From positions 5,165 through 69,164 of the IMG/VR virus record IMGVR_UViG_3300037464_000007: a stretch of 64,000 nucleotides of DNA; one strand, written 5' to 3'. The translations under genes were made by a program, and so were the position numbers. Below are positions 41,701 to 56,310 of this stretch, in pieces. The notes under the pieces are model-generated. The model did not search any database. It was not told the origin of the DNA and saw only the letters and a program-made list of their open reading frames with translations. This DNA comes from a virus. Numbering within the stretch: the first letter of the stretch is position 1; each line of letters begins with the position of its first letter.

Positions 41701-41950
41701 GAGAGAAGCAAATATTACTAAGTTAGATTCTACTTATAAGGAGGTTAGCAACATTCTTACTGTAAAGAAGTCTTATGAATCGTATTTATCTGAGTTAGAC
41801 GATATGTTGGAAAAGATGAATAACTTTGAGTCTATTATCAGTTCTAATATTCAGTTCTCCAGTATAGGAGATAGTGATGATATAAACTTAAGAATAGAGA
41901 AGTTACGCAGAATTCCTAGAGTTGGATGTTTAAAAATGTATGGAAGATAA
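38741..41950 (+). CDS. MuF/SPP1 gp7-type head morphogenesis protein with long insertions and C-terminal extension
   Basis: RIKRIAETEISLAYNLGRL..CTYC..LPPFHVSCWC. Confidence 0.8.
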   Translation: MTTALIKKTNNKSFSSLSTKYVENFVTRVESKLYDFNKTFLTPYKKKLDELDKSVISDIEKNLSSPALLVKNQLDELWNYHWMLGQKDVLSSNKKTSKGTNYSSNPINFITFTTQEDLAVKGIWNAKVEKAILKDYDRRVIRLQRDLNKATNVDKKAISAQLQDISRELEQFLGKIQNRQQTATTKQFATIGVRVRDLQETVRVMELKLSEGTSSISSPTDIDILNSSQFGTIYQDKRTLLLGQSYASDYKKGIISSIKKYFANNEGTRPKTRERDLFTQLTKNTSTNVSKEEITKVKALTNSRDRLSNKDRLAAQAVQEFISSISNGRSLTDKKIRQFIKRDKSASSINKLMSATQGTIYEDNTTRLVDEMRNIGTNEGSYSTNIKLLLQEIKNREKYPLGDNVERVFDTRSNSYRSIEELETSISNIFGIQRIKRIAETEISLAYNLGRLKKLQQLGYRKVRISNEAENNSNRQQALNTYGSLAKAYRSDNNERYLPMLCTYCLTKNNQVMDISTIYKGKVNTKYEVEGKYSSLPPFHVSCWCYFVGVEESKRDSEGSLVSELAEGIKNSVVADSLSNQTTSNAFYNDPFIKKLVIAGAGLLSVGAAYYAYTRLARNKVQIPLNLRPKTSKVSQQISNIPQEIQEASLKNFVDNLDTTAMVEVAEVANKLPKAFRIASSADNLISTVDNQLSQEVYTLTNNTQSTLNELIADNPDYLSVLNSLLTSKKSYEGIRDRILQNKLKGQDLDEIYQTYLDNKQEYEAQLSRYLQATKGKRSNLVDLSSNLNVSAREVILDNRSNLPKGASLQSALDSLKSRKLVDSSNRQLRSIEKNLNKEISNISDLQSRESRLIDTRLGGRDSRARAEQLKNLKPKLPSTSLSTKNLDTVVSNVNRIKRDLNDNRLNLETIRSISKKRLDSSSVADRALLIDTQKQYYRQILTEKERVVSQLKTMTNVDSLENFSKLYRSEISNKAKTGYQYSSGLWREANITKLDSTYKEVSNILTVKKSYESYLSELDDMLEKMNNFESIISSNIQFSSIGDSDDINLRIEKLRRIPRVGCLKMYGR

Positions 41951-43127
41951 GTATTTTACAAGTAGTAGACTAAATCAAATTACTTTTGCTAATAGTAACA
42001 GCCGAAAGATACGAAAGAATATTAACGTTAAAGGGTTCTTTAGAAAAGGTAAATTTGTTAGAGCTTTTAATAGAGAGCAAGACGTAAGAGAGAAAGTAGT
42101 TAAAGTTGCTGTTGCTAGTTTAGCTGTTTTAGGAGGTGCATTAGGAGTTGGAGTTGCTACTGCTGCTTTGACTAAGGTTAGGTATAACAGAAATTTAGTT
42201 AACTTTGGTAAGAATATTGCTAAAGGTGGAATAGGTATTGAAGATATGAAGATTCCTTCTGGAGTTAAAGCTAAAAATTTACCTAAGATTAGAGATTTAA
42301 GTCAAGATAAAGTGCCTAAGAAATCTATGACTTTCTTTATTGGTGGTATGGATAGAGCAGAGAATGGTCAAGGTGATAAGTTTATGAGGTTAGTAAAGAC
42401 AGGTTTTTCTAAACAGAAAAGAGGAGTAGAAGAAAATCATGAACTAATACCTTTATTTCATAACTACCAAGTAAAGAGAGATGTACTTATAGCAGGTAAA
42501 CAAGTTAAAGGGATTCCAGAAGTAGAAGTAGCTCAAGAAATAGCAGATGTGTTTGAGAAAGCAACTGTTAAAGGTTACAACAAAGATTCAGTTATTATGG
42601 CTAATGAAATCTATAAATGGCACAAGTTAAATCCTAGTAAACCTATTAATCTGGTTACTGCTAGTGCGGGAGGTTTTCAAGGTAGAGAAGTTCCACACAT
42701 ATTACAAGCTGCTGGGGTAGATGTAAAAAAGCTAATGAAGGTATTTTCTACTGCAAGTCCTGATTATGGTTTGGTAGACGAGATTGTTCCTACTATGAAA
42801 GTTATGCACAACGATGATTTATACTCTAAAACTATTCCGGGTCTTAAAGATGGTTTGAGATTACCTTCGTTACACCGAGGAACTAGATTTATTGGTAAAG
42901 GGGATACCCCTGAATATAGAGATATGGTTGCTAGAAAGGGCATGGCTGATATGGGGAATGTAGTAACTAAAGGAGATGAAGGGTTTATTGCTGGTAAAAG
43001 ATATATTCTACCTAAGTCTAAACATATGCCAGTCTTTGTACATTTAGGCCCTGCTTATTTTAACGGAGAAACTAAAACTTCTAAAAAGACTTATCAATAT
43101 TTATACAATTTTATGTTTAAAGATTAG
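41940..43127 (+). CDS. putative virion protein with TM segment and alpha/beta-hydrolase-like domain
   Basis: VKGFFRKGKFVRAFNR motif, hydrophobic helix, FFIGGM, nucleophile-elbow-like LVTASAGG, STASP, HNDD. Confidence 0.5.
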   Translation: MEDKYFTSSRLNQITFANSNSRKIRKNINVKGFFRKGKFVRAFNREQDVREKVVKVAVASLAVLGGALGVGVATAALTKVRYNRNLVNFGKNIAKGGIGIEDMKIPSGVKAKNLPKIRDLSQDKVPKKSMTFFIGGMDRAENGQGDKFMRLVKTGFSKQKRGVEENHELIPLFHNYQVKRDVLIAGKQVKGIPEVEVAQEIADVFEKATVKGYNKDSVIMANEIYKWHKLNPSKPINLVTASAGGFQGREVPHILQAAGVDVKKLMKVFSTASPDYGLVDEIVPTMKVMHNDDLYSKTIPGLKDGLRLPSLHRGTRFIGKGDTPEYRDMVARKGMADMGNVVTKGDEGFIAGKRYILPKSKHMPVFVHLGPAYFNGETKTSKKTYQYLYNFMFKD

Positions 43128-43358
43128 AGAAATAGTTATTATATTTTGAAGAAATAAGCAATAAATATAAATAGATACTTCTATTGTTTCTACTATTTGA
43201 AGATACTGATTTATAGTTATATCAATCTTGCCGTTTTCGATTTTACTCATTTCTGCTTGAGAATAAGAGAGTATTTTACCTAACTCTATTTGACTTATGT
43301 TTCTACTTTCTCTGTATTTTCTTAACTGCTTACCAAATTCTATATTAGCTGGATACAT
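43101..43358 (-). CDS. XRE/Cro-family HTH regulator
   Basis: FGKQLRKYRESRNISQIELGKILSYSQAEMSKIENGKIDITI. Confidence 0.85.
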   Translation of the reverse strand: MYPANIEFGKQLRKYRESRNISQIELGKILSYSQAEMSKIENGKIDITINQYLQIVETIEVSIYIYCLFLQNIITISLIFKHKIV

Positions 43359-43450
43359 TATTCACCGAAAGAATTACTATTAATAACGAAAATAGTAACA
43401 TACAATAAGTGATATAACAAAATTATATTAGTAAATAAAAGAGGTAATTA

Positions 43451-43675
43451 ATGGCAGGTAAAAGATTAGTTCAAGCAGCTAAGATGGCAGGTACAGGAGC
43501 TGGAGTTGGTTGGGCTACTGGATATGCTGTAGGAGGAAACAATGATAAGATTCCAATGGTAACGAAAGGTAAGATTAAGAAAGGCGGAAAGAAAGCTCCT
43601 ACAATTCAAAGGTCTGCTGCTGTTGGAGGTTTAGTTCTAGGTGCAGGAATGGGATTACTAAAGAAAAAGAAATGA
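43451..43675 (+). CDS. basic Gly-zipper putative virion protein
   Basis: GTGAGVGWATGYAVGG and AAVGGLVLGAGMG segments separated by Lys-rich linkers. Confidence 0.65.
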   Translation: MAGKRLVQAAKMAGTGAGVGWATGYAVGGNNDKIPMVTKGKIKKGGKKAPTIQRSAAVGGLVLGAGMGLLKKKK

Positions 43676-44880
43676 CAATAATTCACTTTAATACTATTCC
43701 TAGCGCTTTAAAAGAAGTTGGTAATAGTGACGACCCAAACGAAATTATAAAAGAAGGCTTAATATTCTACTCTACTGAAGAGAACAATCCTCACGTTGAT
43801 AGTAGAAAGAATAAACATAGTTTTCCTCCAGATAAGATTAGAGAATTAGTAGAAAACACTAACAAACATTTCAATATTTCTGATTGCGGTATTCCTGTCT
43901 TAACTGAACATAAAAAAGATATTAATAATGTGGTAGGCTTTATTGAGTCGCCAATGGAAGCTAGAGTTATAGACGAAACTTATACTAAAGGCAACCCAAA
44001 ACTAAGACATTTAATAGGTCGAGTAGGAGTATTTGTTAAAGATGTTTGTATAAAAGTTCCTGAAATAGTTGATAAGATGAGAAGAGGTCTTGCTAAAACT
44101 GTTTCTGCTGGTATTGATTTAGATACCTTTTCTATTAAAGAACTGTCTCTTGTAGCTCTACCCGCAATTCCAAATGCAACTCTTTTTAGTTATCATGCTA
44201 ATAAGGAATCCAATCAACCAAATATGAAGAAAATAAAAAACAAGAATCTATTAGTATCGAAAGGATATAGTAAAGAAAGTAATTACGCTTTATCTCTTGA
44301 AGAAGCTCTTAATACGTCTCAAACTATTGAAGAACAAAGAGAAGAAGCAATGAAAGTGTTTACTGCATTTCTAGAAGTAGTTGAAGATGCTAATGAAATT
44401 GATCCAGAAGAAATGGCTTCAATGGGGATACAAGACCCGTCTGAACTTATCCAAGGAGCAATTGAGGATTTATCCAATATGTTAGCTGAGATGTTTGTTT
44501 CTGTTCCCGAACCCGAAACTCAACAACCTGCTCCTGTAACTCCTGCTAGACCTGGAATGCCAGCAACTAAAGCTAGGTATTCTTTCTCACCTGAATTAGT
44601 TAAGTTTGCTGCTAATCCTTATGCTAAAAGTGGTAGAATGGCTGCTACTGTTCAAAGCAAGATTAATGATATGGCTACTGGAAAAGGCGCTGCTGGAGTT
44701 TATAGTAAAATAGGTAAAGCAATCAAAACTGTTAAAGCTAATCCTCTTAAAACTGGTGCTGCTCTACTAATAGCTAATCAAGTTAGAAAAACAGGAATGA
44801 AAGCTCTAGATAACCGTAAAAAGAAATCTCAGAGTTTAGAAGGTAAACTATCTCGTGCAATTAAAACATTTAAAAATTAG
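43672..44880 (+). CDS. prohead protease (Mu gpI-like) with acidic and basic C-terminal extensions
   Basis: IPVLTEHKK..VVGFI..KTVSAGIDL..IKELSLVALPAI; located before scaffold and MCP. Confidence 0.7.
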   Translation: MTIIHFNTIPSALKEVGNSDDPNEIIKEGLIFYSTEENNPHVDSRKNKHSFPPDKIRELVENTNKHFNISDCGIPVLTEHKKDINNVVGFIESPMEARVIDETYTKGNPKLRHLIGRVGVFVKDVCIKVPEIVDKMRRGLAKTVSAGIDLDTFSIKELSLVALPAIPNATLFSYHANKESNQPNMKKIKNKNLLVSKGYSKESNYALSLEEALNTSQTIEEQREEAMKVFTAFLEVVEDANEIDPEEMASMGIQDPSELIQGAIEDLSNMLAEMFVSVPEPETQQPAPVTPARPGMPATKARYSFSPELVKFAANPYAKSGRMAATVQSKINDMATGKGAAGVYSKIGKAIKTVKANPLKTGAALLIANQVRKTGMKALDNRKKKSQSLEGKLSRAIKTFKN

Positions 44881-44892
44881 GAAATACAAACT

Positions 44893-45177
44893 ATGAAACG
44901 TCAAGCTAATTTTGGTATTGCTCAAAGTCAAGGACAGCAAATGGCTTTAGATGCAGCTAAAAAAGGAGTTGGTCGAGCTAAACGTGTTGGAGCTGTAATG
45001 GCTAAAAAAGGACTAAAAGCTGTTACTAAAAATCCTGGTAAAGCTGGTTTAGCATTAGCTGGATTAGCTGCTGCCGGAGGTCTTGGAATGGCGGGAGCAA
45101 AAGCAATTGGTAATGCTCGCAAACCAAAAACGTTAGGTGACAGAATTAAGAATGCTTCTAAGAAAATGTTTAAGTAA
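44893..45177 (+). CDS. basic Ala/Gly-rich putative virion protein
   Basis: QANFG tag, GKAGLALAGLAAAGGLGMAG, C-terminal KTLGDRIK. Confidence 0.7.
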   Translation: MKRQANFGIAQSQGQQMALDAAKKGVGRAKRVGAVMAKKGLKAVTKNPGKAGLALAGLAAAGGLGMAGAKAIGNARKPKTLGDRIKNASKKMFK

Positions 45178-45182
45178 ACAAT

Positions 45183-46211
45183 ATGAGTAAAGAACAAAGA
45201 CAAGAAGTATATGAACTCTATGACCAGATCTTAGATGGCTTAGAATCTAATTACTCTAGTGGTGAGTTAGATGAAAATGATTATACTCGACTTAAAATCA
45301 AATCTTTGGCTGACTTAGAAACTTCTTTAATTGAGTTAACAGGATTAAAAGAAAGTAAAATTAGTAACAATGAATCAAATTACAGTATGAATTACGCAAA
45401 TTTCAACATGAAAGGTTATTTTGTTCCTGCTCTTGTAGAGTGTATCGAACAAGACTATGAAACTTTAGAAGATGGTTTAGCAGATATTCTCGAACAAACT
45501 GAATTAACAGAACAACAATTAAATAAGATTCTCAGTGGTAAATTGTTTCCTCGTGCAGAAATGGTAGATATCTTGAATGAGATGTTTACTACAACCTCTA
45601 CTAATGATGAAAATGCTTTACGGTTACAAGCTTTTGCAGCAGTAGATAGAGGAGATTTGGAAGAATCAGTTTTGCTTGAGTTACTGGATGAAACTGAAGA
45701 AGACGATGAAGAGTTGGAAGATGAGGATGAGAATGAAGAGGATAGTGAAGAAGTAGAAGAAGATGAAGAAACTTCTGATGAACCTGACGCTAAATATTCT
45801 TACATTAACGATGAAGTAGAACAATTAAAATCTAAAATTGCTAACTTTGAATTTAATTCTCAGTTACAAGAACGTATTTCTGAAGTAGCACAACTTGCTA
45901 ATCAAGGAATTCAAGAACACTGGCTTACTAAATATAAGAAAGATTTGTATTTAGGTTCAGTCAACAAGATTGAAGATATGGTAGCTAGCTTCTCTCAAAA
46001 TGCAGAAAGCAATGGAGTAGATTTAGAAACTCATCTTTATGCTATCGAATTTGCACTTCAAGCAGATAAAGAAGCTAATGACCCTTCTGTTGATTTTTCT
46101 CGTTATGTAGAAGAAAATCTAACTCCTCCTAACGAAGAAGAAGACGAGTTAATAAAAATTAACGTTGCTAGTATGAAAGAACGTTTAGCAGCTCGCAAAA
46201 GTAACCGATAA
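45183..46211 (+). CDS. probable capsid scaffolding protein
   Basis: Very acidic, helical, basic C-terminal tail, directly upstream of decoration and MCP genes. Confidence 0.6.
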   Translation: MSKEQRQEVYELYDQILDGLESNYSSGELDENDYTRLKIKSLADLETSLIELTGLKESKISNNESNYSMNYANFNMKGYFVPALVECIEQDYETLEDGLADILEQTELTEQQLNKILSGKLFPRAEMVDILNEMFTTTSTNDENALRLQAFAAVDRGDLEESVLLELLDETEEDDEELEDEDENEEDSEEVEEDEETSDEPDAKYSYINDEVEQLKSKIANFEFNSQLQERISEVAQLANQGIQEHWLTKYKKDLYLGSVNKIEDMVASFSQNAESNGVDLETHLYAIEFALQADKEANDPSVDFSRYVEENLTPPNEEEDELIKINVASMKERLAARKSNR

Positions 46212-46234
46212 ATAACAAATAAAGAGAAATAATT

Positions 46235-47068: not shown

Positions 47069-47093
47069 TAAGAAATAACTAACAAATAAAAAT

Positions 47094-48260
47094 ATGAGTC
47101 ACGTCGCATCATTTTTCAACGAACCTTTTATCAATAAGCAAATTAATGCCATTGTTGATGAAACACATCGAGATTTACTTAAACGAGATAAATTAATCGA
47201 TGAAGCAATGCCAACCCAGACGTTTGAAACTAGAAACTTCATGGCGTTGTTAACTTCCCGTATTGCTCCTGCTGCTAGAGTAGTTGCTTGGGGTGCAGAG
47301 ATTCCTGTAACTCGTCACGGTGGATTTGAGAAAGTTACAGCTCAACTCACTAAACTTGCTTTATCTCACAGATACGATGAAGAAGATATGTGGGCGTTGT
47401 CAGAAGCATATCAACTAGCAGGTTATATGTGGAACAAAATTCAAACTATCCACAAACCAGACGGAACTGTTCAAAGAGGCGCTAATGACGATTTAGCTAC
47501 TGCTTTATTTGGAGATGTTCAGCAGCTCTTAGATGGTATGGTCGATAGAATGGACATGATGAAGTGGCAGGCAGTATCTACAGGTGCTTTAAACATTGAG
47601 GATATGTCTACTGGAGTCAAGTTTGAGATTGACTACAAGAAAGCAAACGCACCTTATAACCACTTCCCTCTTCCTCTTGTTGCTACAGGTAATACTGCTA
47701 ATCCTGCTCTTAATAAGTGGAGCGACAAACAGAACGCAGATGGTTTCCGCAATATTCAAGACTTAGTTGAAACTTATGACGATACTAACGGGTTTCAACC
47801 TGACAAGATTGTAATGAACCGCAAACTCTGGAATTTGTTTTTAGATCAGAAATCTACTAAAGAAGCTGCTCGTGCAATGACTACTTCAGAGATTGGTTTG
47901 GTTTCTAGAGATATGGCAGATGAGTTACTACGCAGACGTAAGCTACCTCCTGTAGTAGAGTTTGGTGAAAAGTATCATGAAGAAGTTCCGGGTGGAGAAG
48001 CTGTTACTGCAAACTTCTTAAACGATAACCGGATTGTATTCTTGAAGAATAAGATGGGTATCTCGGCTATTGGCCCCACTATGGAGTCTAAAACTAATAT
48101 CATTTCTAGCGGTAAAGATATTCCTAAGATTAAAACAGGTATTTACTTAGATATCTATACTGAAAACGGTCGTCCTCCTAATGATGTGGTAGCCACTGTT
48201 GCTAGCTTTATTCCTATTATCATGAATCCTAAACTTTTGATGGCACAGACCGTAAACTAA
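47094..48260 (+). CDS. major capsid protein (lambda gpE/Phage_cap_E-like)
   Basis: 388 aa; AARVVAWGAEIP..KLALSHRYDEED..RMDMMKWQAVSTG..IDY..PDKIVMN. Confidence 0.85.
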   Translation: MSHVASFFNEPFINKQINAIVDETHRDLLKRDKLIDEAMPTQTFETRNFMALLTSRIAPAARVVAWGAEIPVTRHGGFEKVTAQLTKLALSHRYDEEDMWALSEAYQLAGYMWNKIQTIHKPDGTVQRGANDDLATALFGDVQQLLDGMVDRMDMMKWQAVSTGALNIEDMSTGVKFEIDYKKANAPYNHFPLPLVATGNTANPALNKWSDKQNADGFRNIQDLVETYDDTNGFQPDKIVMNRKLWNLFLDQKSTKEAARAMTTSEIGLVSRDMADELLRRRKLPPVVEFGEKYHEEVPGGEAVTANFLNDNRIVFLKNKMGISAIGPTMESKTNIISSGKDIPKIKTGIYLDIYTENGRPPNDVVATVASFIPIIMNPKLLMAQTVN

Positions 48261-49207: not shown

Positions 49208-49605
49208 GCATTAAAGTATCTACTTATCGAGAATGGAAAGATAATCCTCTTTCAGGTTCTATTGTTCCAAGGTCAGACGATTTACCTTTAGGAGTTACCT
49301 TAGAATCTACTGACAATCCTTCATTACTAGGAGTTGGGGTATCCGTTAACTTTACTGTCTTTACTAACACTTCTACTACTAATTTTAGTGTTGGAAATTA
49401 CGGGACTAACAGCGGTTTATCTCCTATAGTTACTGAACCTAATAAAATAATCTTTAAAGGTTTAGTAGAAAAAGAAACAATTCAGTCAAAGTTAGACTCA
49501 AAACTAGACTCATCTATTTACTACGTTGTTAAAGGAACTTTTCCAGATACAGCAGAAGTTACGTTAGATGAAGGTTATTTCACAAGTAAAGTTACATTAA
49601 TATGA
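49204..49605 (+). CDS. putative virion protein (BppU/Ig-like)
   Basis: C-terminal YYVVKGTF..LDEGYFT. Confidence 0.5.
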   Translation: MSIKVSTYREWKDNPLSGSIVPRSDDLPLGVTLESTDNPSLLGVGVSVNFTVFTNTSTTNFSVGNYGTNSGLSPIVTEPNKIIFKGLVEKETIQSKLDSKLDSSIYYVVKGTFPDTAEVTLDEGYFTSKVTLI

Positions 49606-50012
49606 GAATTATTAAGTTTATAGGGTCTACTAACTCTTCTTATGCAAGAGGAAAAGATAAAAAGAAACGAAAAAATCGAGGTTTATTAACTACAGGAGCT
49701 TTAACTCTTACCGGAGGAGCTGTTGGAAGTAGACTGGCTCAAACAGGCATAATAACAAAGAAAATGAAGAAAAATTTTCTTAAAGGAGCAGGTAGAAAAA
49801 TGAAACTCTCTGAGAAAATAATGAGCCATGTTATAGCAAATAACGTAGTTAACACTACCCATAATAGTAGTAATGCTCCTAAAAAAATAGTAAAGCTATT
49901 TAATAAAGCTAAATTACGTGGAGGAATTAAAGGATCTGCTATTGGAGCAGGAGTAGGTTTAGGTGGAACATTGTTAGTAAATAAATTAAAAAACAGAAAG
50001 AAGGATAAATAA
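49602..50012 (+). CDS. basic Gly-zipper putative virion protein
   Basis: MRIIKFIGS..YARGKDKKKRK tag and two GxxxG-rich helices. Confidence 0.7.
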   Translation: MRIIKFIGSTNSSYARGKDKKKRKNRGLLTTGALTLTGGAVGSRLAQTGIITKKMKKNFLKGAGRKMKLSEKIMSHVIANNVVNTTHNSSNAPKKIVKLFNKAKLRGGIKGSAIGAGVGLGGTLLVNKLKNRKKDK

Positions 50013-50016: not shown

Positions 50017-50781
50017 ATGACTAAGCTAAAAATTATCAATCGAACTCCGTTAAAAAGCCGTCCTATTCCTTTTATTGAATTGCAACCGAAATATCTTTAT
50101 TGGTTAGATACTGGTAGAGAAATAGAAGTTGAAATTTTAAAAGAGAAAGACGCTCATTATGAAGTTAAGTTAGCTACTAATTTTCCTGATAGTCCAGTAG
50201 GAATTAGAACTTGGTTTATTTATAATGAACACGTTGAAGTAATAGAAGATAAGAAAAAGAAATCTACTAAGAATGTATTGAAAACTGATTATTACTACCA
50301 AATAGATAACCATTATCATCCTTATACTTCTTGCTTTTTGACTTGTGTAGCTATGTTACTATCTTTTTATAAGATTAAAGTAACTCCTGACCAACTATAT
50401 AACAAGTGTTTAGATTTAGGTTATGATAGGTTTTCTTGGCAAGATATTACTGCAATACTTAAGAGCTACGGAATCAAACATTACTCTACTACTTCTGGTA
50501 CTGCTCAAGAGTTAAAAGATGCTGTAACTAAAGCTCCTGTAATTTTAGGGACTTACTTAACTGAAGCTAGCCATATTGTTTTAGTAGTGGGATTTGATGA
50601 TTCTGCTTATGATGGTAGAGGTGCATTTGTAGTTAATGACCCTTATGGTGAATTTACTCATAACGGCTACATCCACACTCCAACAGCAGGGAAAGAGACT
50701 TTATATTCCTATTCTCTAATTGCTCAAGTTGGCGCACCTGAAGGTGATGGAAATTATTGGTTACATTTACCGGAGAATTAA
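50017..50781 (+). CDS. endolysin, peptidase C39-like
   Basis: SH3-like N-terminus; YYYQIDN..SCFLTCVAM (Cys), SHIVLVVGFD (His), VNDPYG. Confidence 0.8.
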   Translation: MTKLKIINRTPLKSRPIPFIELQPKYLYWLDTGREIEVEILKEKDAHYEVKLATNFPDSPVGIRTWFIYNEHVEVIEDKKKKSTKNVLKTDYYYQIDNHYHPYTSCFLTCVAMLLSFYKIKVTPDQLYNKCLDLGYDRFSWQDITAILKSYGIKHYSTTSGTAQELKDAVTKAPVILGTYLTEASHIVLVVGFDDSAYDGRGAFVVNDPYGEFTHNGYIHTPTAGKETLYSYSLIAQVGAPEGDGNYWLHLPEN

Positions 50782-50784
50782 ATT

Positions 50785-51057
50785 ATGGAAACTAAAATGA
50801 GACGCTCTCTTTACTTAACAAAAACATTTCTATTTTCAGTAGTGCTTTATCTATCCGTAGTTTATCAACCTCTTGTTAATTACATTTATGAGGGTCAGAT
50901 GAGCAAAGATGATTTTACTGCTTTACTTGTAGGAACATTTGGTTTTCTAGGAGTAAGTGGAAGTCGAGCAAGAGTTAATGACGATATTAGAGCTAGTGCA
51001 AGAGAAGGAGTACCCGTTGGATTAGTAGGGACGGGTATTCCCAACAATAAAGTATAA
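50785..51057 (+). CDS. probable holin
   Basis: 90 aa, two hydrophobic segments, directly after the endolysin. Confidence 0.6.
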   Translation: METKMRRSLYLTKTFLFSVVLYLSVVYQPLVNYIYEGQMSKDDFTALLVGTFGFLGVSGSRARVNDDIRASAREGVPVGLVGTGIPNNKV

Positions 51058-51064
51058 AAATGAG

Positions 51065-52624
51065 ATGGTTGTATTTAGTGTATTATTTGAGAAAATTGAG
51101 GATGAGTATTATTACCGATATATAAGTGATAGTATTACGTATTACCTCCCTAGCTACCGTACTGATAGATTAGACAAACCTATTAGTAGCTTTATTAATG
51201 CTCAAGGGCCAATTTATGCTGAGTCAGTTTATAAGTTCTTAAATAAAGCTTTTGAGACTGGTGAACATATTGAAGATTTTACGGTTAAAGACCCAAGAAG
51301 TGAAAAAGAGATATCGTTAACTCTCTTTGGTTATAAATATCTCAATTTCATTATCCTAGTTGGTAGTCAAAAATCAGATAGTTTATTAGAAAACACTTTA
51401 TTTAAAGAGAATTACCTATTTCTTATTCAATGGGCTAACTCAAAAGAATGTGTTCCTGAAGATATATCTGATAATTTAGCCGGACTTCTTGAATATACAA
51501 AGCAGGAGATATTAGCTAAACCGTATATTTCTTTAATTCATTCTGATGATGTTAGTTCTTTTAAATCTGAGCTGCTTACTTATTTAGATAAAGGTACTGC
51601 ATCTTTCTATCAGAAATATAGATTAGTTACTAAGTCGAGTAAGGATATAACTGTTCTTGACCATACTTGCAGAATTCTAAGAGAAAACGCTGTTGTTACT
51701 ATTAGCTATTTAAGAGATATTACTAAAGATGAGTTAATGTCTAGTAGGTTAGCTGAGTTAGCTTTATTAGACGAAGAAAACTTTAATACTAGCTTACTTA
51801 TAAAAATCGAATGGGATAGAAACTTCAACATTTCTCGATGGAATCAACAAGCTAGAGAGCTATTAGGTTGGGATAACTCTATTATTGGTAAAAATATTAG
51901 AGATATAAGTCTTCTTAATTCTGAAGATGCAATTGCAATGCAAGGACAGCTTAAGAGGTTACTTAACCATGAAGTAGAATTAGTAGTTAGCAATTATAAA
52001 ATCTGCAAAAAAGACGGCAGTCACTTAGATACTAAATGGTCTAACAAGCTTGCTATAAGAGACGGGGATTTAAGAGTTTTATCTTCAATTATTGATAGAA
52101 GTGAAGAAGCGTTATTAGCTACTAAATTAATAGAGATGGAGGAAAGGTCAGACTTACTGCTCAAGACTCTTTACTCTACTAATACCAACTTTAACAATGA
52201 CGTATTTAGAAAACTTGTAGATACTCCTTTAACTTCTAGCTCTGAAGGATTGATTAAAGCTGAGATAATTATTAGAAAGATAGAAGAAGAGTTAAAAAGA
52301 CTTAATGATACTATTTTTCACAATAATGGTAACAATCTTTTAAGTGAAGTAGCTAATCTCAAATATGAAGTTAAAGATATTAGAGAAGATGTTAGTAGAA
52401 TTAAGGAGAGTCAGTCTAAGCTATCTACTGAGTTAAGCGATTTATTAAATATTAATATACTTAGTTTAGGTAAGAATCTTAACTTCAAGAACTTAACAGG
52501 GTTACTTGTAGTTAGTTATGTAATATTCGGGTTAGTGTTTCCGGGTCTTTACCATAATTTAGCTAAACCTTATCTTATCCAATACTATAAAGAATTAAAA
52601 CAAATAGAAGGGAAAAAGGATTAA
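51065..52624 (+). CDS. multi-PAS sensor protein with coiled coil and C-terminal TM, no output domain
   Basis: PAS/PAC signatures: ISDNLAGLLEYTKQEIL..LIHSDD..YRLVTKS..RDIT and EWDRNFNISRWNQQARELLGW..CKKDGS..W.N..D; C-terminal LTGLLVVSYVIFGLVF. Confidence 0.85.
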   Translation: MVVFSVLFEKIEDEYYYRYISDSITYYLPSYRTDRLDKPISSFINAQGPIYAESVYKFLNKAFETGEHIEDFTVKDPRSEKEISLTLFGYKYLNFIILVGSQKSDSLLENTLFKENYLFLIQWANSKECVPEDISDNLAGLLEYTKQEILAKPYISLIHSDDVSSFKSELLTYLDKGTASFYQKYRLVTKSSKDITVLDHTCRILRENAVVTISYLRDITKDELMSSRLAELALLDEENFNTSLLIKIEWDRNFNISRWNQQARELLGWDNSIIGKNIRDISLLNSEDAIAMQGQLKRLLNHEVELVVSNYKICKKDGSHLDTKWSNKLAIRDGDLRVLSSIIDRSEEALLATKLIEMEERSDLLLKTLYSTNTNFNNDVFRKLVDTPLTSSSEGLIKAEIIIRKIEEELKRLNDTIFHNNGNNLLSEVANLKYEVKDIREDVSRIKESQSKLSTELSDLLNINILSLGKNLNFKNLTGLLVVSYVIFGLVFPGLYHNLAKPYLIQYYKELKQIEGKKD

Positions 52625-52626
52625 CT

Positions 52627-52977
52627 ATGTGGCGACCATTTGACAATCCAGCTAAAAGACGAAAAAGATTTATAGAAAAAAACAGTCCTTACCTTGTACC
52701 TTTAGCGGTTGGAGGACTAGCAGCTATGGGAGATGAAAATGCTTCTACTAGACAACGACTTAAAAGAGGTTTAGTTACTGGGGGACAAACTTTTGCAGCT
52801 ATGAAGACAGCAGGAGTATTTGCTAATAATAAGAGCAAAAAGAACTACTACCAAAATACAATTTTACCAACGGTTCAACAAGCTAGAGGAATAGCTAATA
52901 CAGGAATCAATCTACAAAAGAATATGAGAGCTGCTACTAAATTTGACTTCTGGAAAAAGAAGAAAGGATTAATTTAA
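52627..52977 (+). CDS. basic amphipathic putative virion protein
   Basis: LVPLAVGGLAAMG, GLVTGGQTFAAM, Lys-rich ends. Confidence 0.6.
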   Translation: MWRPFDNPAKRRKRFIEKNSPYLVPLAVGGLAAMGDENASTRQRLKRGLVTGGQTFAAMKTAGVFANNKSKKNYYQNTILPTVQQARGIANTGINLQKNMRAATKFDFWKKKKGLI

Positions 52978-53570: not shown

Positions 53571-53590
53571 TTAATAGAAAAACAAAAACT

Positions 53591-54469
53591 ATGTTGTACG
53601 ACATTACGTTTGCTAATCAAAATCAATTTACTAATTTCGGGAGAGGTAAAGATAAGACTAAAAGAAAAAGTAGAGTTTCTGTTGCTGCTGGAGCTGGTTT
53701 AGGTACTGTAGCAGGAGGCCCAGTTGGAACTATCGCTGGGGGATTAATAGCTCGTGGAATTAATAAAGAAAAAGATAGATATGAAAAACAAGGCCCAAGA
53801 AGTCATTTAGGTAAGATTGGTCACGATGCTAAATTAGGAGCTAAATCAGTAGGTATAGGTAGTGCTATTACTGCTGGATTGGCTGGAGCAGCTTTAGGCT
53901 CTAGATTACCAACTGTTAAAAAGAAAGGATTTTTAGGATTAGGAAGAGATAAGAAAGCAGAAGCTAAACAGAAACTCAAAAATACTCTTATGGGAGCAGG
54001 TTTAGGTATTCTTGGAGGTGGAGTTAGTGGTGCTGTTTCTGGAGCAGGTAACGGAGCTTTAGTAGGTGCTGGTAGAGGATTTCTTCAAGAAAATAAAACT
54101 AAGAAAAAGAAAGGTAAGTTTTCTAATTCTACTAAACTTGCTGAATTTGCTTTGAGTCTTCCTCCTAAAAAGCAGAAACAAAGAAGTAGATTGGGGATGG
54201 TTGGTCACGATACTAAAAAAGGAGCTAAGATTGGGGCGGGTTTAGGAGCAGCTTATTTAGGAAGTGTAGGTGTTAGAGCAGGGATGAAACAACCTGGTAG
54301 CCTAAAATCTAAAATAGCAGGTGCTGTTTTAGGTGCAGGGATAGGTACTCTTGCGGGGAGTGCAGGTGGAGCAATTCAAGGTGCTAAAACAGGCCTTGGT
54401 GTTGGAGTAGTTCGGTCTTTAGTAACCCCAAGAAAAAAGAAGTCTTTATTTGATAGATTTAAAAAATGA
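53591..54469 (+). CDS. basic Gly-zipper putative virion protein, two repeated modules (start moved to MLYDITF)
   Basis: ITFANQNQFTNFGRGKDKTKRKSR; RSHLGKIGHDAK and RSRLGMVGHDTK repeats; C-terminal KKKSLFDRFKK. Confidence 0.75.
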   Translation: MLYDITFANQNQFTNFGRGKDKTKRKSRVSVAAGAGLGTVAGGPVGTIAGGLIARGINKEKDRYEKQGPRSHLGKIGHDAKLGAKSVGIGSAITAGLAGAALGSRLPTVKKKGFLGLGRDKKAEAKQKLKNTLMGAGLGILGGGVSGAVSGAGNGALVGAGRGFLQENKTKKKKGKFSNSTKLAEFALSLPPKKQKQRSRLGMVGHDTKKGAKIGAGLGAAYLGSVGVRAGMKQPGSLKSKIAGAVLGAGIGTLAGSAGGAIQGAKTGLGVGVVRSLVTPRKKKSLFDRFKK

Positions 54470-54473
54470 TGCT

Positions 54474-55316
54474 ATGAGAAAGATTATTTTTATGGGACAG
54501 CAAGAAACTATTAACTTTACTAAATCCACTAAGAAAAGAGATATAAAAAATGGTATCGCTAATCTAGCAGCTACAGCTTATTTAGGTCAGCAAACTATTC
54601 GCTCAGGTGTTCCGAGATTACTAGGTGTTAGGTTAGAGTCACATAGTACAAGTAAAAAAAATGCTAAAGAAATTCTTAAAAACGGTGGTATTTTAGACCC
54701 AAATTATGGAGGTACAGGAGCAAGTAAAGCTCTAAATGATAAACATTACATTAATCAATCTAAAAACTATGTACATCTTACAGGGAGACATAAAGATGAT
54801 ATTGGAAAAACTACTCTACTAAAAGACCTTATTCATAGAAAACGTCAGAGAGCTATGTATCGAGGGCTTCCAGGTGAAGATATAAACACTAAAGATGTTG
54901 GTAAAATTGCACGTAATCTATTAAAAGGGTTAACGGGAGTTAAAGGTAAGACTTTGTATCTTGGGGGAAGTGATAATTATTTTAATAAGAATTTTATTTC
55001 TGACCCTAGTGATATAGCTCTTAAAACATCTAATAAAGTTCGTGTACATGGAAATAGAACAACTGCAACTCTAGAGGCTTTAAAAAGAGAAGGTAATGGG
55101 GATAGGTTAAAAGGTATATCTAAATTAGTAAAAGCTAACCCAAAAAGAGCTTTAGCAGGAGTGGCTATTCTTACTGTTGGCACCGGACTAACCTCTATAA
55201 GTGCAAAAGATACTTACAACAGTTTTAACGGCAAAGTCAAAGGACATACTAGAAAGAATAAATCTGGTAAATGGTCAAATGTTAAATCATTTATAAGAGA
55301 TAAAATAAAGAAATGA
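54474..55316 (+). CDS. putative virion protein carrying a KptA/Tpt1-like ADP-ribosyltransferase-fold domain (start moved to MRKIIF)
   Basis: SHSTSKKNAKEILKNGGILDP..YVHLT resembles KptA HGT..ILK.GL.P..YVHLS; flanked by hydrophobic helices. Confidence 0.55.
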   Translation: MRKIIFMGQQETINFTKSTKKRDIKNGIANLAATAYLGQQTIRSGVPRLLGVRLESHSTSKKNAKEILKNGGILDPNYGGTGASKALNDKHYINQSKNYVHLTGRHKDDIGKTTLLKDLIHRKRQRAMYRGLPGEDINTKDVGKIARNLLKGLTGVKGKTLYLGGSDNYFNKNFISDPSDIALKTSNKVRVHGNRTTATLEALKREGNGDRLKGISKLVKANPKRALAGVAILTVGTGLTSISAKDTYNSFNGKVKGHTRKNKSGKWSNVKSFIRDKIKK

Positions 55317-55822
55317 GAGAAATAATATTTGTTAATTCTACTAATATTAACTTTGGTAGAGGTAAGGACAAGACTAAAAGAAAAAGTAGAATTGGTTTAG
55401 CTTCTTCTATTGCTACTGGAGCAACTATAGGAGCTAGTAAATATGGAGCTTTAGGTGCTTTATCTGGAGCAGGTAATCTTGCTGGTATTGGAATAGGAAT
55501 AGACAAAGATATTGATAAAGAAAAGACTAGATTTAAAAAGTCTGGTTCAAGGTCTAGATTAGGTAAAGTTGCTAACGATGCAAAAAGTGGAGCTAGAAAT
55601 GTAGGTGGAGCAACAGCTAGTCTAGGACTTATAAATACAGTTCTAAAAACTAAAGGTAAGCTCAAAGACCGAGCTATTAAAGGAATTGGTAAAGGCTTAG
55701 TTTGGGGAGCTAAAGGTGCATTAGCAGGTGGATTAGCTGGTTCTAGTGTAGGTACTACAAGAGGTTTAGTTCAACCTAATAAAAAGAAAAGTCTATTACA
55801 GAGGCTAAAAGATAAGAAATGA
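55313..55822 (+). CDS. basic Gly-zipper putative virion protein
   Basis: MREIIFVNSTNINFGRGKDKTKRKSR; RSRLGKVANDAK; KKKSLLQRLK. Confidence 0.75.
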   Translation: MREIIFVNSTNINFGRGKDKTKRKSRIGLASSIATGATIGASKYGALGALSGAGNLAGIGIGIDKDIDKEKTRFKKSGSRSRLGKVANDAKSGARNVGGATASLGLINTVLKTKGKLKDRAIKGIGKGLVWGAKGALAGGLAGSSVGTTRGLVQPNKKKSLLQRLKDKK

Positions 55823-56310
55823 GAAAGATAAATTTTATAGGCTCTACTAGCTCAAATTATCTATTTGGTAAACCTAAAAAACCTTCTCGATTAAAAAGTG
55901 CAGGTATTGGAGCTGGAGTTGGTGTAGCTGCTGGTTATAATGCAGGTGGAATTCCCGGTGCAGTAATGGGGGGACTTAGAGGTGCTACTGATAGTTTTGT
56001 TAGAAAGAACGGTTACAACTCTCTACTTACAAGAGCTAAAAGATATGCTCCTACTTCTTTTGCAGGTAAAGTGACTAATGATGCTAAAACTATTGGAACT
56101 CTTTCTGCTGCTGGAGGTGGATTAACTGGAGCTGTTAGAGGAGGACTCAAAGGATTAAAAGGTGGTTGGAAAGGTGCTTTAGGAGGAGCAGTTGGTCAAG
56201 GAGCTAGAAGTGCATTCGGAGCTACTAAAAAAGGAGCTGCTGTAGGTGCAGGAATTGGTGGACTGAGAGGATTGAAGAGAAAGAAAAACTACTTACTACC
56301 TACTTCTTAA
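55819..56310 (+). CDS. basic Gly-zipper putative virion protein
   Basis: MRKINFIGS..YLFGKPKK; FAGKVTNDAK; GxxxG arrays. Confidence 0.75.
   Translation: MRKINFIGSTSSNYLFGKPKKPSRLKSAGIGAGVGVAAGYNAGGIPGAVMGGLRGATDSFVRKNGYNSLLTRAKRYAPTSFAGKVTNDAKTIGTLSAAGGGLTGAVRGGLKGLKGGWKGALGGAVGQGARSAFGATKKGAAVGAGIGGLRGLKRKKNYLLPTS

What the first reader, a model, noticed from the sequence alone, without database searches (positions are those of the whole stretch)
41940..56310. Shared N-terminal 'xxF' tag: candidate capsid-targeting and protease-cleavage code
Seen: many late genes begin or are segmented by similar motifs: NQITFANS (41940), MTIIHFNT, TLFSY and VKFAA (protease), QANFG (44893), YANFN and IANFE (scaffold), MRIIKFIGS..SYARGKDK (49602), DITFAN..TNFGRGKDK and LAEFA (53591), MRKIIFMG..INFTK (54474), MREIIFVNS.NINFGRGKDK (55313), MRKINFIGS..YLFGK (55819). 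Established: T4 internal proteins use a short N-terminal capsid-targeting sequence removed by the prohead protease. Inference: an equivalent Phe-based addressing and cleavage code loads about ten cargo proteins into the head.
Basis: partly seen in the sequence, partly recalled or inferred. Interest (0 to 1): 0.7.

Follow-up and report, generated by a model that had tools for sequence, protein, structure and literature searches.

The report
Phe-ended cleavage tags on phage head proteins
Several very basic proteins of this uncultured 150-kb phage start with the same short peptide, and this peptide and related motifs ending in Phe or Tyr mark module boundaries in the head-assembly proteins. These are most likely the cutting and packaging signals of the phage's own capsid protease, in a T4-like scheme with a cut-site type I found in no paper, but no cut has been shown.

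Summary
Four paralogous Gly-zipper proteins (49602, 53591, 55313, 55819) share a strongly conserved ~25-residue N-terminal module: M-R-x-I-x-F-[IVM]-G-S-T, then N-[FY], then G-R-G-K-D-K. Protein 54474 and the hydrolase-like 41940 share only its short core.

Gene 43672 is a capsid maturation protease with the herpesvirus assemblin / T4 gp21 fold.

Across about 150 distant homologues of this protease, A-x-F motifs are conserved at three places: the N-terminus, directly after the catalytic domain (A-N-F|A-L-T) and near the C-terminus. ANF occurs 32 times in their tails against 4.9 expected.

Modules that stand alone behind an M…A-N-F leader in one phage are fused behind an …x-x-F site in another, and the homology begins exactly at the Phe.

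In the cultured relatives Pam2 and PA-SR01, ANF punctuates the scaffold. It also punctuates two proteins that mass spectrometry detected in Pam2 virions.

My best reading (about 0.55) is a propeptide and cleavage code with Phe/Tyr at P1, in the manner of the T4 capsid-targeting sequence and the herpesvirus R and M sites. Cleavage and packaging are inferred, not shown.

The scan has noted lineage-specific cleavage codes in other phages (L/I-x-E, K-x-A, S-x-S), but none ending in Phe. I class this as a new variant of a known kind.

The parts
43672..44880 (+). Head maturation protease (residues about 19-176) fused to a scaffold-like linker and a basic Gly/Lys tail. Invariant H80, S145 and S159.
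   Evidence: AF2 model pLDDT 86. Foldseek: the top ~38 hits are herpesvirus proteases. VIA: VZV protease Z 9.8, T4 gp21 (5jbl) Z 9.6. Invariant columns. Homologous to PA-SR01 ORF24, E 9e-25, which the PA-SR01 paper matched to PF10123 by HHpred (PMC10286775).
43672..43695 (+). Protease N-terminal motif M-T-I-I-H-F-N-T, in a disordered 18-residue extension.
   Evidence: pLDDT below 50 for residues 1-18. N-terminal Phe at positions 6-8 is enriched family-wide.
44275..44295 (+). E-S-N-Y|A-L-S: candidate release site just after the protease domain. It is the window's version of the family's A-N-F|A-L-T-W-D-E site.
   Evidence: Conserved as S-N-[YF]-A-L-S in all 45 close homologues. 43 of 125 distant representatives have the aromatic + A-L-T-h-D/E-E arrangement: P3 Ala in 27, P1 Phe in 38, P1' Ala in 26.
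44587..44613 (+). S-P-E-L-V-K-F|A-A: candidate maturation site where the C-terminal tail module begins.
   Evidence: Conserved island in 45 homologues. Short forms stop 2-6 residues after this Phe; long forms continue with unrelated tails. The tail aligns from exactly F-A-A onward with a stand-alone gene of relative L050 that begins M-K-R-N-N-Y-A-N-F-A-A, E 5e-12.
41973..41996 (+). N-Q-I-T-F-A-N-S core near the N-terminus of 41940. This is a 395-aa protein (pI 9.9) with a hydrophobic helix and a probable alpha/beta-hydrolase domain.
   Evidence: I-T-F-A is kept in orthologues of G001, G002 and L050. Hydrolase lead from Atlas structure neighbours, TM about 0.5. Not found by the tag HMM.
44893..44916 (+). 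M-K-R-Q-A-N-F|G leader of a 94-aa basic Gly-rich protein.
   Evidence: The orthologue in G002 starts M-K-K-S-I-N-F-S. A 44893-like module is fused behind S-P-E-L-I-T-F in protease P0028, E 0.002. PA-SR01 proteins start M-R-K-S-A-N-F and M-K-H-F-A-N-F.
45390..45407 (+). N-Y-A-N-F|N in the acidic scaffold protein (45183-46211, pI 4.1).
   Evidence: Invariant in orthologues at 40-83% identity. The Pam2 scaffold carries four ANF motifs.
45834..45851 (+). K-I-A-N-F|E: second scaffold motif, less conserved.
   Evidence: Present in 3 orthologues and replaced by other sequence in the rest.
49602..49679 (+). N-terminal module of 49602 (136 aa, pI 11.9): leader ending S-S-Y, then A-R-G-K-D-K.
53591..53674 (+). 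N-terminal module of 53591 (292 aa, a tandem of two modules): leader ending T-N-F, then G-R-G-K-D-K.
   Evidence: The internal repeat starts after K-K-K-G-F (53918-53956), aligned with the residue that follows I-N-F in 55313.
54474..54542 (+). N-terminal module of 54474 (280 aa, pI 10.5; the body is unrelated to the paralogues): M-R-K-I-I-F-M-G … I-N-F|T-K.
   Evidence: Pattern match. The orthologue in G002 keeps M-R-E-I-I-F-A-G … T-N-F-A-K. The independent HMM gives only E 0.12.
55313..55390 (+). N-terminal module of 55313 (169 aa, pI 11.2): leader ending I-N-F, then G-R-G-K-D-K.
55819..55890 (+). N-terminal module of 55819 (163 aa, pI 11.5): leader ending N-Y-L-F, then G-K-P-K-K.
47094..48260 (+). 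Major capsid protein (Phage_cap_E), the shell into which these proteins would be loaded.
   Evidence: Pfam E 1.7e-6. 28% identical to the PA-SR01 and Pam2 capsid proteins, E 4e-41.

Best explanation
Gene 43672 encodes the phage's capsid maturation serine protease, with the assemblin / T4 gp21 fold. I propose that it cuts after an aromatic residue. The approximate consensus is small or aliphatic at P3 (A, S, T, I), often Asn at P2, Phe or Tyr at P1, and a small residue after the cut (G, A, S, N, T).

The candidate sites are:
- in the protease itself, after the catalytic domain (S-N-Y|A) and before its C-terminal tail (V-K-F|A);
- in the acidic scaffold (Y-A-N-F|N);
- at the end of short N-terminal leaders on a set of extremely basic Gly-zipper proteins, and possibly on two larger proteins (41940, 54474).

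On the Gly-zipper proteins the leader (M-R-x-I-x-F-I-G-S-T-x-x-N-F/Y, about 14 residues) would act as a propeptide and capsid-targeting peptide. Removing it would expose a G-R-G-K-D-K-K-K-R-K N-terminus. The basic products would stay with the DNA in the head and probably leave with it at infection.

Shown here: the protease fold and its invariant His/Ser; conservation of the motifs; their position at module boundaries; their enrichment.

Inferred: that they are cut, by this protease, at that bond; that the leader targets proteins to the prohead; and what happens to the products.
For: Protease identity:
- AF2 model pLDDT 86.
- Foldseek: the top ~38 hits are all herpesvirus proteases, best E 1.6e-3, probability 1.00.
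- VIA: VZV protease Z 9.8 and T4 gp21 Z 9.6, well above unrelated rows at 5 or below.
- H80, S145 and S159 are invariant in 55 sequences.

Family-wide motif:
- In the tails of 125 representatives (50%-identity clusters), ANF occurs 32 times against 4.9 in shuffles (z 13), and [AIV]-x-F 262 times against 178 (z 7).
- The same patterns ending in Y, W, L or E are not enriched.
- Conserved sites lie directly after the domain and near the C-terminus and at the N-terminus.
- One distant member ends with T-A-N-F-G-R-G-K-D-K-R-K, the same junction as the window tags.

Module boundaries:
- The window protease tail is homologous to a stand-alone gene of L050, and the homology begins exactly at the Phe, E 5e-12.
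- A 44893-like module is fused behind the site in P0028.
- Short-form proteases stop just after the site.
- A PA-SR01 stand-alone protein aligns with an internal module of Pam2 gp17 that lies ~25 residues after I-R-K-S-A-S-F.

Pam2:
- ANF occurs 26 times against 9.2 expected, 12 of them in gp14-gp18, which make up 4.3% of the proteome.
- gp15 and gp17 were detected in virions by MS; the protease and scaffold were not detected (PMC9382816, Table S2).

Window:
- Tags are conserved at the protein level, not the DNA level.
- They sit on at least 7 BLAST-distinct bodies in relatives.
- The proteins have pI 10-12 and the scaffold pI 4.1.
- The tagged gene set changes between phages whose capsid proteins are 97% identical.

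From the literature: a fixed P1 with a preferred P3 and a free P2 is how the SPN3US protease site is described (A-X-E; PMC10052503). The same paper credits T4 propeptides with targeting proteins into the prohead core.
Against: - There is no direct evidence of any cut: no virion N-termini for this phage or for Pam2/PA-SR01.
- The strong tag is largely one paralogue family. The two unrelated bodies match only a short core (E 0.12, or not found).
- The motif consensus was assembled after looking at the data, and NF[GA] is not enriched in the contig overall.
- In Pam2, virion proteins encoded beside the tail fibre gene (gp42, gp44) also begin M-x-H-F-A-N-F, and gp46 ends in …F-A-N-F. A prohead protease would not be expected to process tail proteins, so ANF may have another or an additional role.
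- Homology between the window Gly-zipper proteins and the Pam2/PA-SR01 proteins is not significant, so the mass-spectrometry evidence transfers only by analogy.
- Pfam does not place the protease in any curated family.
Confidence: 0.55

Rival explanations
1. The motifs are docking peptides that are not cut. The I-x-F-I-G-S-T leader and the A-N-F motifs would bind a groove on the inside of the capsid shell, the scaffold or the portal, as encapsulin cargo-loading peptides do on an HK97-fold shell. They would remain part of the mature proteins.
For: - The first Phe of the tag is invariant and is followed by hydrophobic-G-S. From memory, this resembles the encapsulin hydrophobic-G-S-L loading peptide; I did not test that resemblance.
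- Two Pam2 proteins end exactly in …A-N-F, which is what a terminal binding epitope would look like.
- Several leaders are only 3-5 residues long before the first Phe, for example M-I-K-F-I-G. That is too short to be a removable targeting peptide if the cut were there.
Against: - Binding alone does not explain why the motif sits directly after the protease domain and before its C-terminal tail, which are the self-cleavage positions of assemblins and of the SPN3US protease.
- It does not explain why the scaffold of Pam2, which MS did not detect in virions, has four copies.
- It does not explain why fused and split gene forms break at the Phe.
Confidence: 0.2
2. The conserved N-termini carry no addressing or cleavage function. 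They would reflect common descent of a fast-duplicating family of basic Gly-zipper proteins, the conserved module being simply a DNA- or membrane-binding part of the mature protein. The other 'xxF' matches would be chance.
For: - Four of the five strong tags belong to paralogues.
- 54474 and 41940 are not significant against an independent HMM.
- NF[GA] is not enriched overall.
- Two of the five window ANF motifs are not conserved.
Against: - The tag is far better conserved than the bodies and sits on bodies that BLAST cannot link.
- The same junction, A-N-F-G-R-G-K-D-K, appears at the C-terminus of a distant protease homologue.
- ANF enrichment in about 125 independent protease tails has z 13.
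- Homology of swapped modules starts exactly at the Phe.
Confidence: 0.15
3. The cuts are real but are made by a host enzyme that cleaves after Phe. The model is the Prp cysteine protease, which trims ribosomal protein L27 and the phage 80alpha capsid and scaffold proteins at F|A.
For: - Prp cuts after Phe before a small residue, followed by Lys-Lys (motif in PMC9405229).
- The protease C-terminal site E-L-I-Q-F|T-K-Y-K-K loosely resembles L-Q-F-F|A-S-K-K.
- The host is unknown and the contig has low GC.
Against: - The phage has its own maturation protease, whereas 80alpha has none.
- The motifs lack the N-L-Q core.
- The nearest cultured relatives infect the cyanobacterium Pseudanabaena. The review lists long L27 only for Firmicutes, Tenericutes and Fusobacteria.
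- The motif is conserved inside the protease family itself, at self-cleavage positions.
Confidence: 0.07
4. The papain-like C39-type peptidase at 50017 removes the leaders, as C39 peptidases remove double-glycine leaders from bacteriocins.
For: Peptidase_C39_2, E 1.5e-17. The gene lies immediately downstream of tagged gene 49602 and is conserved in G001 and G002.
Against: - It matches the endolysin family PHROG 10051 at E 2.3e-18.
- It is followed by a small membrane protein, as in a lysis cassette.
- In Pam2 a glycoside hydrolase gene (gp13) lies just upstream of the protease gene gp14 in the head module.
- The leaders have no Gly-Gly at a fixed position.
Confidence: 0.03

Closest known systems
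Phage T4 prohead protease gp21 with its L/I-x-E sites, and the 10-residue capsid-targeting sequence of the internal proteins
   Same: - Same protease fold (5jbl, Z 9.6).
- A short N-terminal leader on small, very basic head-internal proteins.
- The scaffold and the protease itself carry the same motif.
- A variable set of cargo genes.
- The T4 propeptide targeting function is cited in PMC10052503; the T4 site details are from my own knowledge.
   Different: - P1 would be Phe/Tyr rather than Glu.
- The leader is about 14 residues with an extra invariant I-x-F core.
- No sequence similarity.
- A siphovirus relative of the Pseudanabaena phages, not a T4-like myovirus.
- Nothing has been shown experimentally.
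Herpesvirus assemblin (pUL26-type protease-scaffold fusion) with release (R) and maturation (M) sites
   Same: - Best structural matches.
- N-terminal protease domain fused to a scaffold-like C-terminal part.
- One conserved site right after the protease domain and one close to the C-terminus.
   Different: - From my own knowledge, herpesvirus sites end in Ala before Ser; here the conserved residue is Phe/Tyr.
- The tail after the distal site is a swappable basic Gly-rich module or a 5-residue Lys-rich stub.
Giant-phage prohead proteases (phiKZ gp175, SPN3US gp245), which cut after A/S/G-x-E and process many ejection proteins
   Same: - Many head-internal proteins with N-terminal propeptides.
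- The protease removes its own C-terminal propeptide.
- A logo with a preferred P3 and a fixed P1 (PMC10052503).
   Different: Different P1 residue, and short rather than mostly long (111-254 residue) propeptides.
Staphylococcus aureus Prp acting on L27 and on the phage 80alpha capsid and scaffold proteins
   Same: Cleavage after Phe before a small residue in a short N-terminal extension of phage head proteins. The motif is given in PMC9405229.
   Different: - Prp is a host cysteine protease of unrelated fold.
- Its motif has an N-L-Q core that is absent here.
- This phage encodes its own serine protease.
Pseudanabaena phages Pam2 and PA-SR01 (head module)
   Same: - Homologous protease (E 9e-25), capsid protein and scaffold (aligned at 24% identity).
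- Gly-rich proteins after the protease gene with M-R-K-S-A-N-F or M-K-H-F-A-N-F leaders, and internal copies of the same motif.
- Pam2 gp15 and gp17 were detected in virions by MS.
   Different: - Their motif is a plain A-N-F / A-E-F without the I-x-F-I-G-S-T … G-R-G-K-D-K module.
- Homology of the Gly-rich proteins to the window's is not significant.
- The published papers do not mention the motif.

Membership tests
Capsid maturation serine proteases of the assemblin / T4 gp21 fold | Characteristic protease fold | tested here: met
   AF2 model pLDDT 86. Foldseek: the top ~38 hits are herpesvirus proteases. VIA: VZV protease Z 9.8, T4 gp21 Z 9.6, HCMV protease Z 7.6, next unrelated row Z 5.0.
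Capsid maturation serine proteases of the assemblin / T4 gp21 fold | Conserved catalytic His and Ser | tested here: inconclusive
   H80, S145 and S159 are invariant in 55 diverse sequences. I could not check that they superpose on the catalytic residues of the solved structures, because the tools give no coordinates.
Capsid maturation serine proteases of the assemblin / T4 gp21 fold | Gene lies in the head module, next to the scaffold and capsid genes | tested here: met
   Gene order: 41940, 43451, protease 43672, 44893, acidic scaffold 45183, 46235, capsid 47094.
Pfam Mu-like prophage I protein (PF10123) / Peptidase_S78 | Match to the curated profile above its threshold | tested here: not met
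   hmmscan gives no hit for the window protein. Only 1 of 55 family members gives a weak S78 hit, E 0.0077. hhalign against a single Mu gpI sequence finds nothing. The only link is the HHpred match reported for PA-SR01 ORF24 (PMC10286775).
T4-type capsid-targeting sequence system | The same short N-terminal leader on otherwise unrelated proteins | tested here: inconclusive
   At least 7 BLAST-distinct bodies carry the tag in relatives. In the window, however, the two non-paralogous bearers match only a 6-residue core.
T4-type capsid-targeting sequence system | The leader ends in the cleavage motif used elsewhere by the same protease | tested here: inconclusive
   The leader ends in N-[FY] followed by G/A. 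This has the same form as the S-N-Y|A and A-N-F|A sites of the protease family. None of these sites has been shown to be cut.
T4-type capsid-targeting sequence system | The proteins are packaged in the head and the leader is removed | not testable with these tools
   The only evidence is analogy: Pam2 gp15 and gp17 were detected in virions by MS.
Herpesvirus-type R-site / M-site architecture | A conserved site after the protease domain and another near the C-terminus of a protease-scaffold fusion | tested here: met
   43 of 125 representatives have A-x-F|A-L-T-h-D/E-E within 70 residues after the domain. 100 of 150 have Phe in the last 35 residues, with P3 Ala and P2 Asn as the commonest residues. 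Window sites are at 44275-44295 and 44587-44613.
Herpesvirus-type R-site / M-site architecture | Sites end in Ala followed by Ser | tested here: not met
   The conserved residue is Phe (38 of 43) or Tyr (5 of 43), followed mostly by Ala.
Prp substrates (L27-type N-terminal extension) | Motif M-L-x-x-(D/N)-L-Q-(F/L)-F|A-(S/H)-K-K | tested here: not met
   The tags have no L-Q core. Motif taken from PMC9405229.
Double-glycine leaders processed by C39 peptidases | The leader ends in G-G / G-A / G-S at a fixed position | tested here: not met
   There is no such position in the 18-sequence tag alignment. The C39-like gene matches an endolysin family.
Encapsulin cargo-loading peptides | Short peptide that binds the interior of an HK97-fold shell protein | not tested
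   The resemblance (hydrophobic-G-S) is recalled from memory only.

The most novel reading that the evidence does not exclude
A large, uncharacterised family of assemblin-fold phage proteases (about 155 clusters at 50% identity) has a P1-aromatic specificity (A-x-F|small). In this lineage it works together with a separable loading peptide (I-x-F-I-G-S-T) that docks cargo to the inside of the HK97-fold shell, much as encapsulin loading peptides do. The pair would form a two-part, portable 'load then clip' tag that delivers very basic, channel-forming or DNA-condensing Gly-zipper proteins and enzymes into the host together with the DNA.
Probability: 0.2. Interest if true: 0.75.

Novelty: new variant of a known kind. 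Interest (0 to 1): 0.6.

Why it matters
If the cuts are real, this would define a new substrate code (aromatic P1) for the capsid-protease fold shared by tailed phages and herpesviruses. It would cover about 150 divergent phage lineages for which no curated family or annotation exists.

The code would allow mature virion proteins, scaffold fragments and injected cargo to be predicted from sequence in these phages, including cyanophages of bloom-forming Pseudanabaena.

It would also give a second natural example, besides T4, of a short peptide that could be used to load foreign proteins into a capsid.

The hypothesis can be tested directly, because Pam2 and PA-SR01 are in culture.

Tried and rejected
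- **Complex prediction.** Protease domain (residues 19-180, 55-row alignment) with the 40-residue tag (18-row alignment): score 0.06 against a mark of 0.32, so no answer. I count it neither for nor against.
- **First AF2 run.** A 12-sequence alignment of close homologues gave pLDDT 42 and was unusable. It was replaced by a 55-sequence alignment built from the representative search.
- **Sequence searches that found nothing:**
  - PHROGs for all tagged proteins, the protease, the scaffold and the Pam2 proteins.
  - Pfam for the protease domain.
  - PDB sequence searches with the protease profile, 54474 and 41940.
  - hhalign of the family profile against Mu gpI.
  - tblastn of 55313 against cultured phages.
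  - A scan of prokaryote genome contigs with the capsid protein, made to find a host.
- **KptA/Tpt1-like reading of 54474** (an earlier first-reader note): no support from Pfam, PDB sequences or the Atlas. The fold itself was not predicted.
- **Simple counting of NF[GA] in the contig:** not enriched.
- **'TLFSY' as a site:** T-L-F overlaps the last modelled strand of the protease domain.
- **The first Phe of the tag as the scissile bond:** rejected, because a hydrophobic residue follows it, unlike all other candidate sites, and because some leaders have only three residues before it.
- **Literature searches** for a Phe-specific prohead protease found only the host enzyme Prp.

Full report
**Context.** The window is part of an 80.9-kb IMG/VR viral contig. 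Close relatives are 146-151 kb long and one has direct terminal repeats. The nearest cultured phages are the Pseudanabaena siphoviruses PA-SR01 and Pam2, whose capsid proteins are 28% identical to the window's (E 4e-41).

The late genes on the + strand run in this order:
- terminase, 36702
- a 1069-aa protein, 38741
- 41940
- a 74-aa Gly-rich protein, 43451
- 43672
- 44893
- an acidic scaffold-like protein, 45183 (pI 4.1)
- 46235
- the capsid protein, 47094 (Phage_cap_E)
- neck genes interleaved with small basic proteins, continuing to 56310

**The observation.** An all-against-all blastp shows that 49602, 53591, 55313 and 55819 are paralogues and that 53591 is an internal duplication.

They share a ~25-residue N-terminal module. 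In an alignment of 18 tags from the window and relatives, I4, F6 and K20 are invariant or nearly so. Every member has a second aromatic (F or Y) followed by G/A and a Lys/Arg run. The consensus is M-x-x-I-x-F-I-G-S-T-x-S-N-Y-x-R-G-K-D-K-x-K-R-K.

The coding DNA differs at many synonymous positions, so the peptide is what is conserved, not a recent gene conversion. An HMM built only from relatives' tags recovers the four window paralogues at E <= 7e-11. It gives 54474 only E 0.12, no better than two spurious frames, and does not find 41940.

The shorter core I-x-F-[IVMA]-[GN]-[SQH] occurs seven times in the contig's 24,495 residues, always within the first 20 residues. Six of the seven are in the head module, including 54474 and 41940. 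The 41940 core (I-T-F-A) is kept in four lineages.

So the strong tag is real but is mostly a paralogue feature. Its presence on unrelated bodies in the window rests on a short motif plus position. In relatives, the tag heads at least seven body clusters that BLAST cannot connect.

The complement of tagged genes differs even in a phage whose capsid protein is 97% identical. Only two small tagged genes, plus the 41940 orthologue, exist in the relative whose capsid protein is 77% identical.

Counting 'xxF' or NF[GA] across the contig shows no enrichment.

**The protease.** Pfam, PHROGs and PDB sequence searches do not recognise 43672.
- It is homologous to PA-SR01 ORF24 (E 9e-25). The PA-SR01 authors matched that ORF to the Mu gpI family by HHpred (PMC10286775).
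- A profile search of 1.84 billion cluster representatives found 155 homologues.
- A 55-sequence alignment has invariant N64, H80, G89, S145 and S159.
- With that alignment AF2 gives pLDDT 86, and residues 1-18 are disordered.
- Foldseek's first ~38 hits are all herpesvirus proteases.
- An exhaustive structural scan puts VZV protease (Z 9.8), T4 gp21 (Z 9.6) and HCMV protease (Z 7.6) clearly above unrelated folds.

43672 is therefore a capsid maturation protease fused to a C-terminal scaffold-like region.

**Family-wide motifs.** The distant homologues give a test that is independent of the window. In the tails of 125 representatives, ANF occurs 32 times against 4.9 in composition-preserving shuffles (z 13). 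[AIV]-x-F occurs 262 times against 178 (z 7). The same patterns ending in Y, W, L or E are not enriched.

The motifs sit at three defined places.
- **N-terminus.** The consensus is K-[IL]-[AVT]-[YH]-F-[SN]. Phe occupies positions 6-8 in 71 of 148 sequences, against a background of 4.1% per position. The window's M-T-I-I-H-F-N belongs here.
- **Directly after the catalytic domain.** 43 of 125 sequences have A-x-F|A-L-T-h-D/E-E (P3 Ala in 27, P1 Phe in 38 and Tyr in 5, P1' Ala in 26). The window's version is E-S-N-Y|A-L-S-L-E-E. It is conserved as S-N-[YF]-A-L-S in all 45 close homologues.
- **Near the C-terminus.** 100 of 150 sequences have Phe within the last 35 residues, most often with P3 Ala and P2 Asn, and many of these end in a short basic tail.

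In the window clade the C-terminal site is S-P-E-L-x-x-F, an island of conservation in a variable Pro/Gln-rich linker. Short-form proteins stop 2-6 residues after the Phe (T-K-Y-K-K). Long forms continue with at least three unrelated Gly/Lys-rich tails.

One distant homologue ends in T-A-N-F-G-R-G-K-D-K-R-K, the same junction as in the window tags.

This layout, one site after the protease domain and one near the C-terminus, is that of the herpesvirus release and maturation sites. It also recalls the self-removal of a C-terminal propeptide by the SPN3US protease (PMC10052503).

**Module boundaries coincide with the Phe.**
- The window protease tail, beginning at V-K-F|A-A-N-P, aligns at E 5e-12 with a stand-alone 107-aa gene of relative L050 that starts M-K-R-N-N-Y-A-N-F|A-A-Q. 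The alignment begins exactly at F-A-A.
- The L050 protease instead carries a 44893-like module behind its S-P-E-L-I-T-F site (E 0.002). In the window, 44893 stands alone behind M-K-R-Q-A-N-F.
- In PA-SR01, Gly-rich proteins start M-R-K-S-A-N-F and M-K-H-F-A-N-F.
- In Pam2, a single 640-aa protein (gp17) contains I-R-K-S-A-N-F twice, plus G-K-S-A-N-F, I-R-K-S-A-S-F, K-K-A-E-F and Q-Q-A-E-F.
- The PA-SR01 stand-alone protein aligns (E 7e-8) with the gp17 module that lies ~25 residues after I-R-K-S-A-S-F.
- Within 53591, the second repeat begins after K-K-K-G-F, aligned with the residue that follows I-N-F in 55313.

**Enrichment and virion data in the cultured relatives.**
- Pam2 has 26 ANF motifs against 9.2 expected. 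Twelve of them lie in gp14-gp18, which make up 4.3% of the proteome. The scaffold alone has four.
- The published Pam2 table marks gp15, gp17, gp19 and the capsid protein as detected in virions by mass spectrometry. The protease gp14, gp16 and the scaffold gp18 are not marked (PMC9382816, Table S2). That pattern is what a system that degrades and expels scaffold and protease would give.
- In the window contig ANF occurs five times (2.8 expected), all in four adjacent head genes. The copies in 46235 and in the capsid protein are not conserved in G001 and are probably chance.
- The scaffold's N-Y-A-N-F is invariant in orthologues down to 40% identity.

**Which bond would be cut?** All candidate sites other than the first Phe of the tag have a small residue after the aromatic (G, A, S, N, T) and often Asn before it. 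The tag's second aromatic fits this pattern: I-N-F|G, T-N-F|G, S-S-Y|A, I-N-F|T.

The first, invariant Phe is followed by I, V or M. In some relatives only three residues precede it, as in M-I-K-F-I-G.

I therefore infer that the ~14-residue leader is removed after the second aromatic, exposing a G-R-G-K-D-K N-terminus. The I-x-F-I-G-S-T core would serve recognition or targeting rather than being the scissile site. This is inference only.

**What the tagged proteins are.** All are very basic (pI 10-12) and rich in Gly, with weak glycine-zipper matches. The Atlas model of 41940 has alpha/beta-hydrolase neighbours at TM about 0.5, which is only a lead. 54474 remains unassigned. I could not determine their function. 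Basic head-internal proteins that travel with the DNA, as in T4, is the most economical guess.

**Rivals.**
- An uncut docking peptide remains possible (about 0.2) and may be true of the I-x-F core even if the distal site is cut.
- Pure paralogy without function (0.15) does not fit the family-wide data.
- A host Prp-like enzyme (0.07) is unlikely. The phage has its own protease, the N-L-Q core of Prp sites is absent, and the known hosts of relatives are cyanobacteria.
- The C39-like peptidase at 50017 matches an endolysin family (E 2.3e-18) and sits in a lysis cassette.

**Caveat from Pam2.** Virion proteins gp42 and gp44, encoded on either side of the tail fibre gene, also begin M-x-H-F-A-N-F-G. 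gp46 ends in …F-A-N-F. If these are tail proteins, ANF has a role beyond the prohead.

**Known or new.** The scheme itself is the T4 / giant-phage paradigm: a maturation protease with a short code, leaders on internal proteins, and self-processing. Earlier follow-ups in this scan reported comparable lineage-specific codes in other phages (L/I-x-E, S-x-S, L-N-S-S, K-x-A).

I found no paper describing a phage-encoded capsid protease that cuts after Phe. The only Phe-directed case was the host enzyme Prp. The PA-SR01 and Pam2 papers do not mention the motif.

I class the finding as a new variant of a known kind. Confidence in the cleavage reading is moderate (0.55), and confidence that the leader addresses proteins to the capsid is lower.

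Noticed in passing
window 38741-41950: This 1069-aa protein follows the terminase, where a portal gene would be expected. It has a Cys/His cluster (C-T-Y-C … H-V-S-C-W-C) resembling, from memory, the MuF / SPP1 gp7 minor head protein motif, then a hydrophobic helix and a long coiled-coil-like C-terminal half. Pam2 gp10 has a similar Cys cluster, and the Pam2 portal gene lies about 40 kb away. No portal gene was identified in the window.
   Followed up: no
window 50017-52624: A lysis-like cassette sits inside the head-neck module: a C39_2-type peptidase matching the endolysin family PHROG 10051, a 90-aa membrane protein, and a 519-aa PAS-domain protein with a C-terminal hydrophobic helix. It is conserved in G001 and G002.
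   Followed up: partly
Pam2 record ON014754: 40482-41141, 42825-43325, 48276-48671, 139411-140370: Virion proteins gp42 and gp44 (detected by MS), encoded on either side of the tail fibre gene, start M-Q/E-H-F-A-N-F-G. gp46 (also detected) ends in F-Q-H-F-A-N-F. Another ORF starts M-I-H-F-A-N-F. The motif is therefore not confined to the head module.
   Followed up: partly
window 52627-52977; L040 7169-7468; L043 1595-1894: The window's 116-aa basic protein starts M-W-R-P-F-D-N-P and has no tag. A 99-aa protein of L043 that BLAST links to it (33% identity), and its L040 homologue, start with the full tag (M-V-I-H-F-I-G-T-I-N-S-S-Y-R-R-G-K-D-K). The tag may therefore be gained or lost on related bodies.
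   Followed up: partly
L035 and L047 (metagenome contig LCrCPGB2_illDRAFT_1000001, 307,959 bp): The same locus occurs twice, about 154 kb apart, on one contig. This looks like an assembled head-to-tail dimer of a ~154-kb genome.
   Followed up: no
window 53591-56310 compared with G002 46-50 kb and G001 142-144 kb: The set of tagged Gly-zipper genes turns over quickly. Between phages whose capsid proteins are 97% identical, the number, length and order differ. The 54474 orthologue is 413 aa in G002 against 280 aa here. The 49602 gene is absent from G002.
   Followed up: partly
window 24512-24715 (- strand): A 67-aa early-region ORF starts M-S-E-K-K-E-V-P-F-I-N-Q-S-T, which matches the tag core pattern. 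It is probably chance.
   Followed up: no
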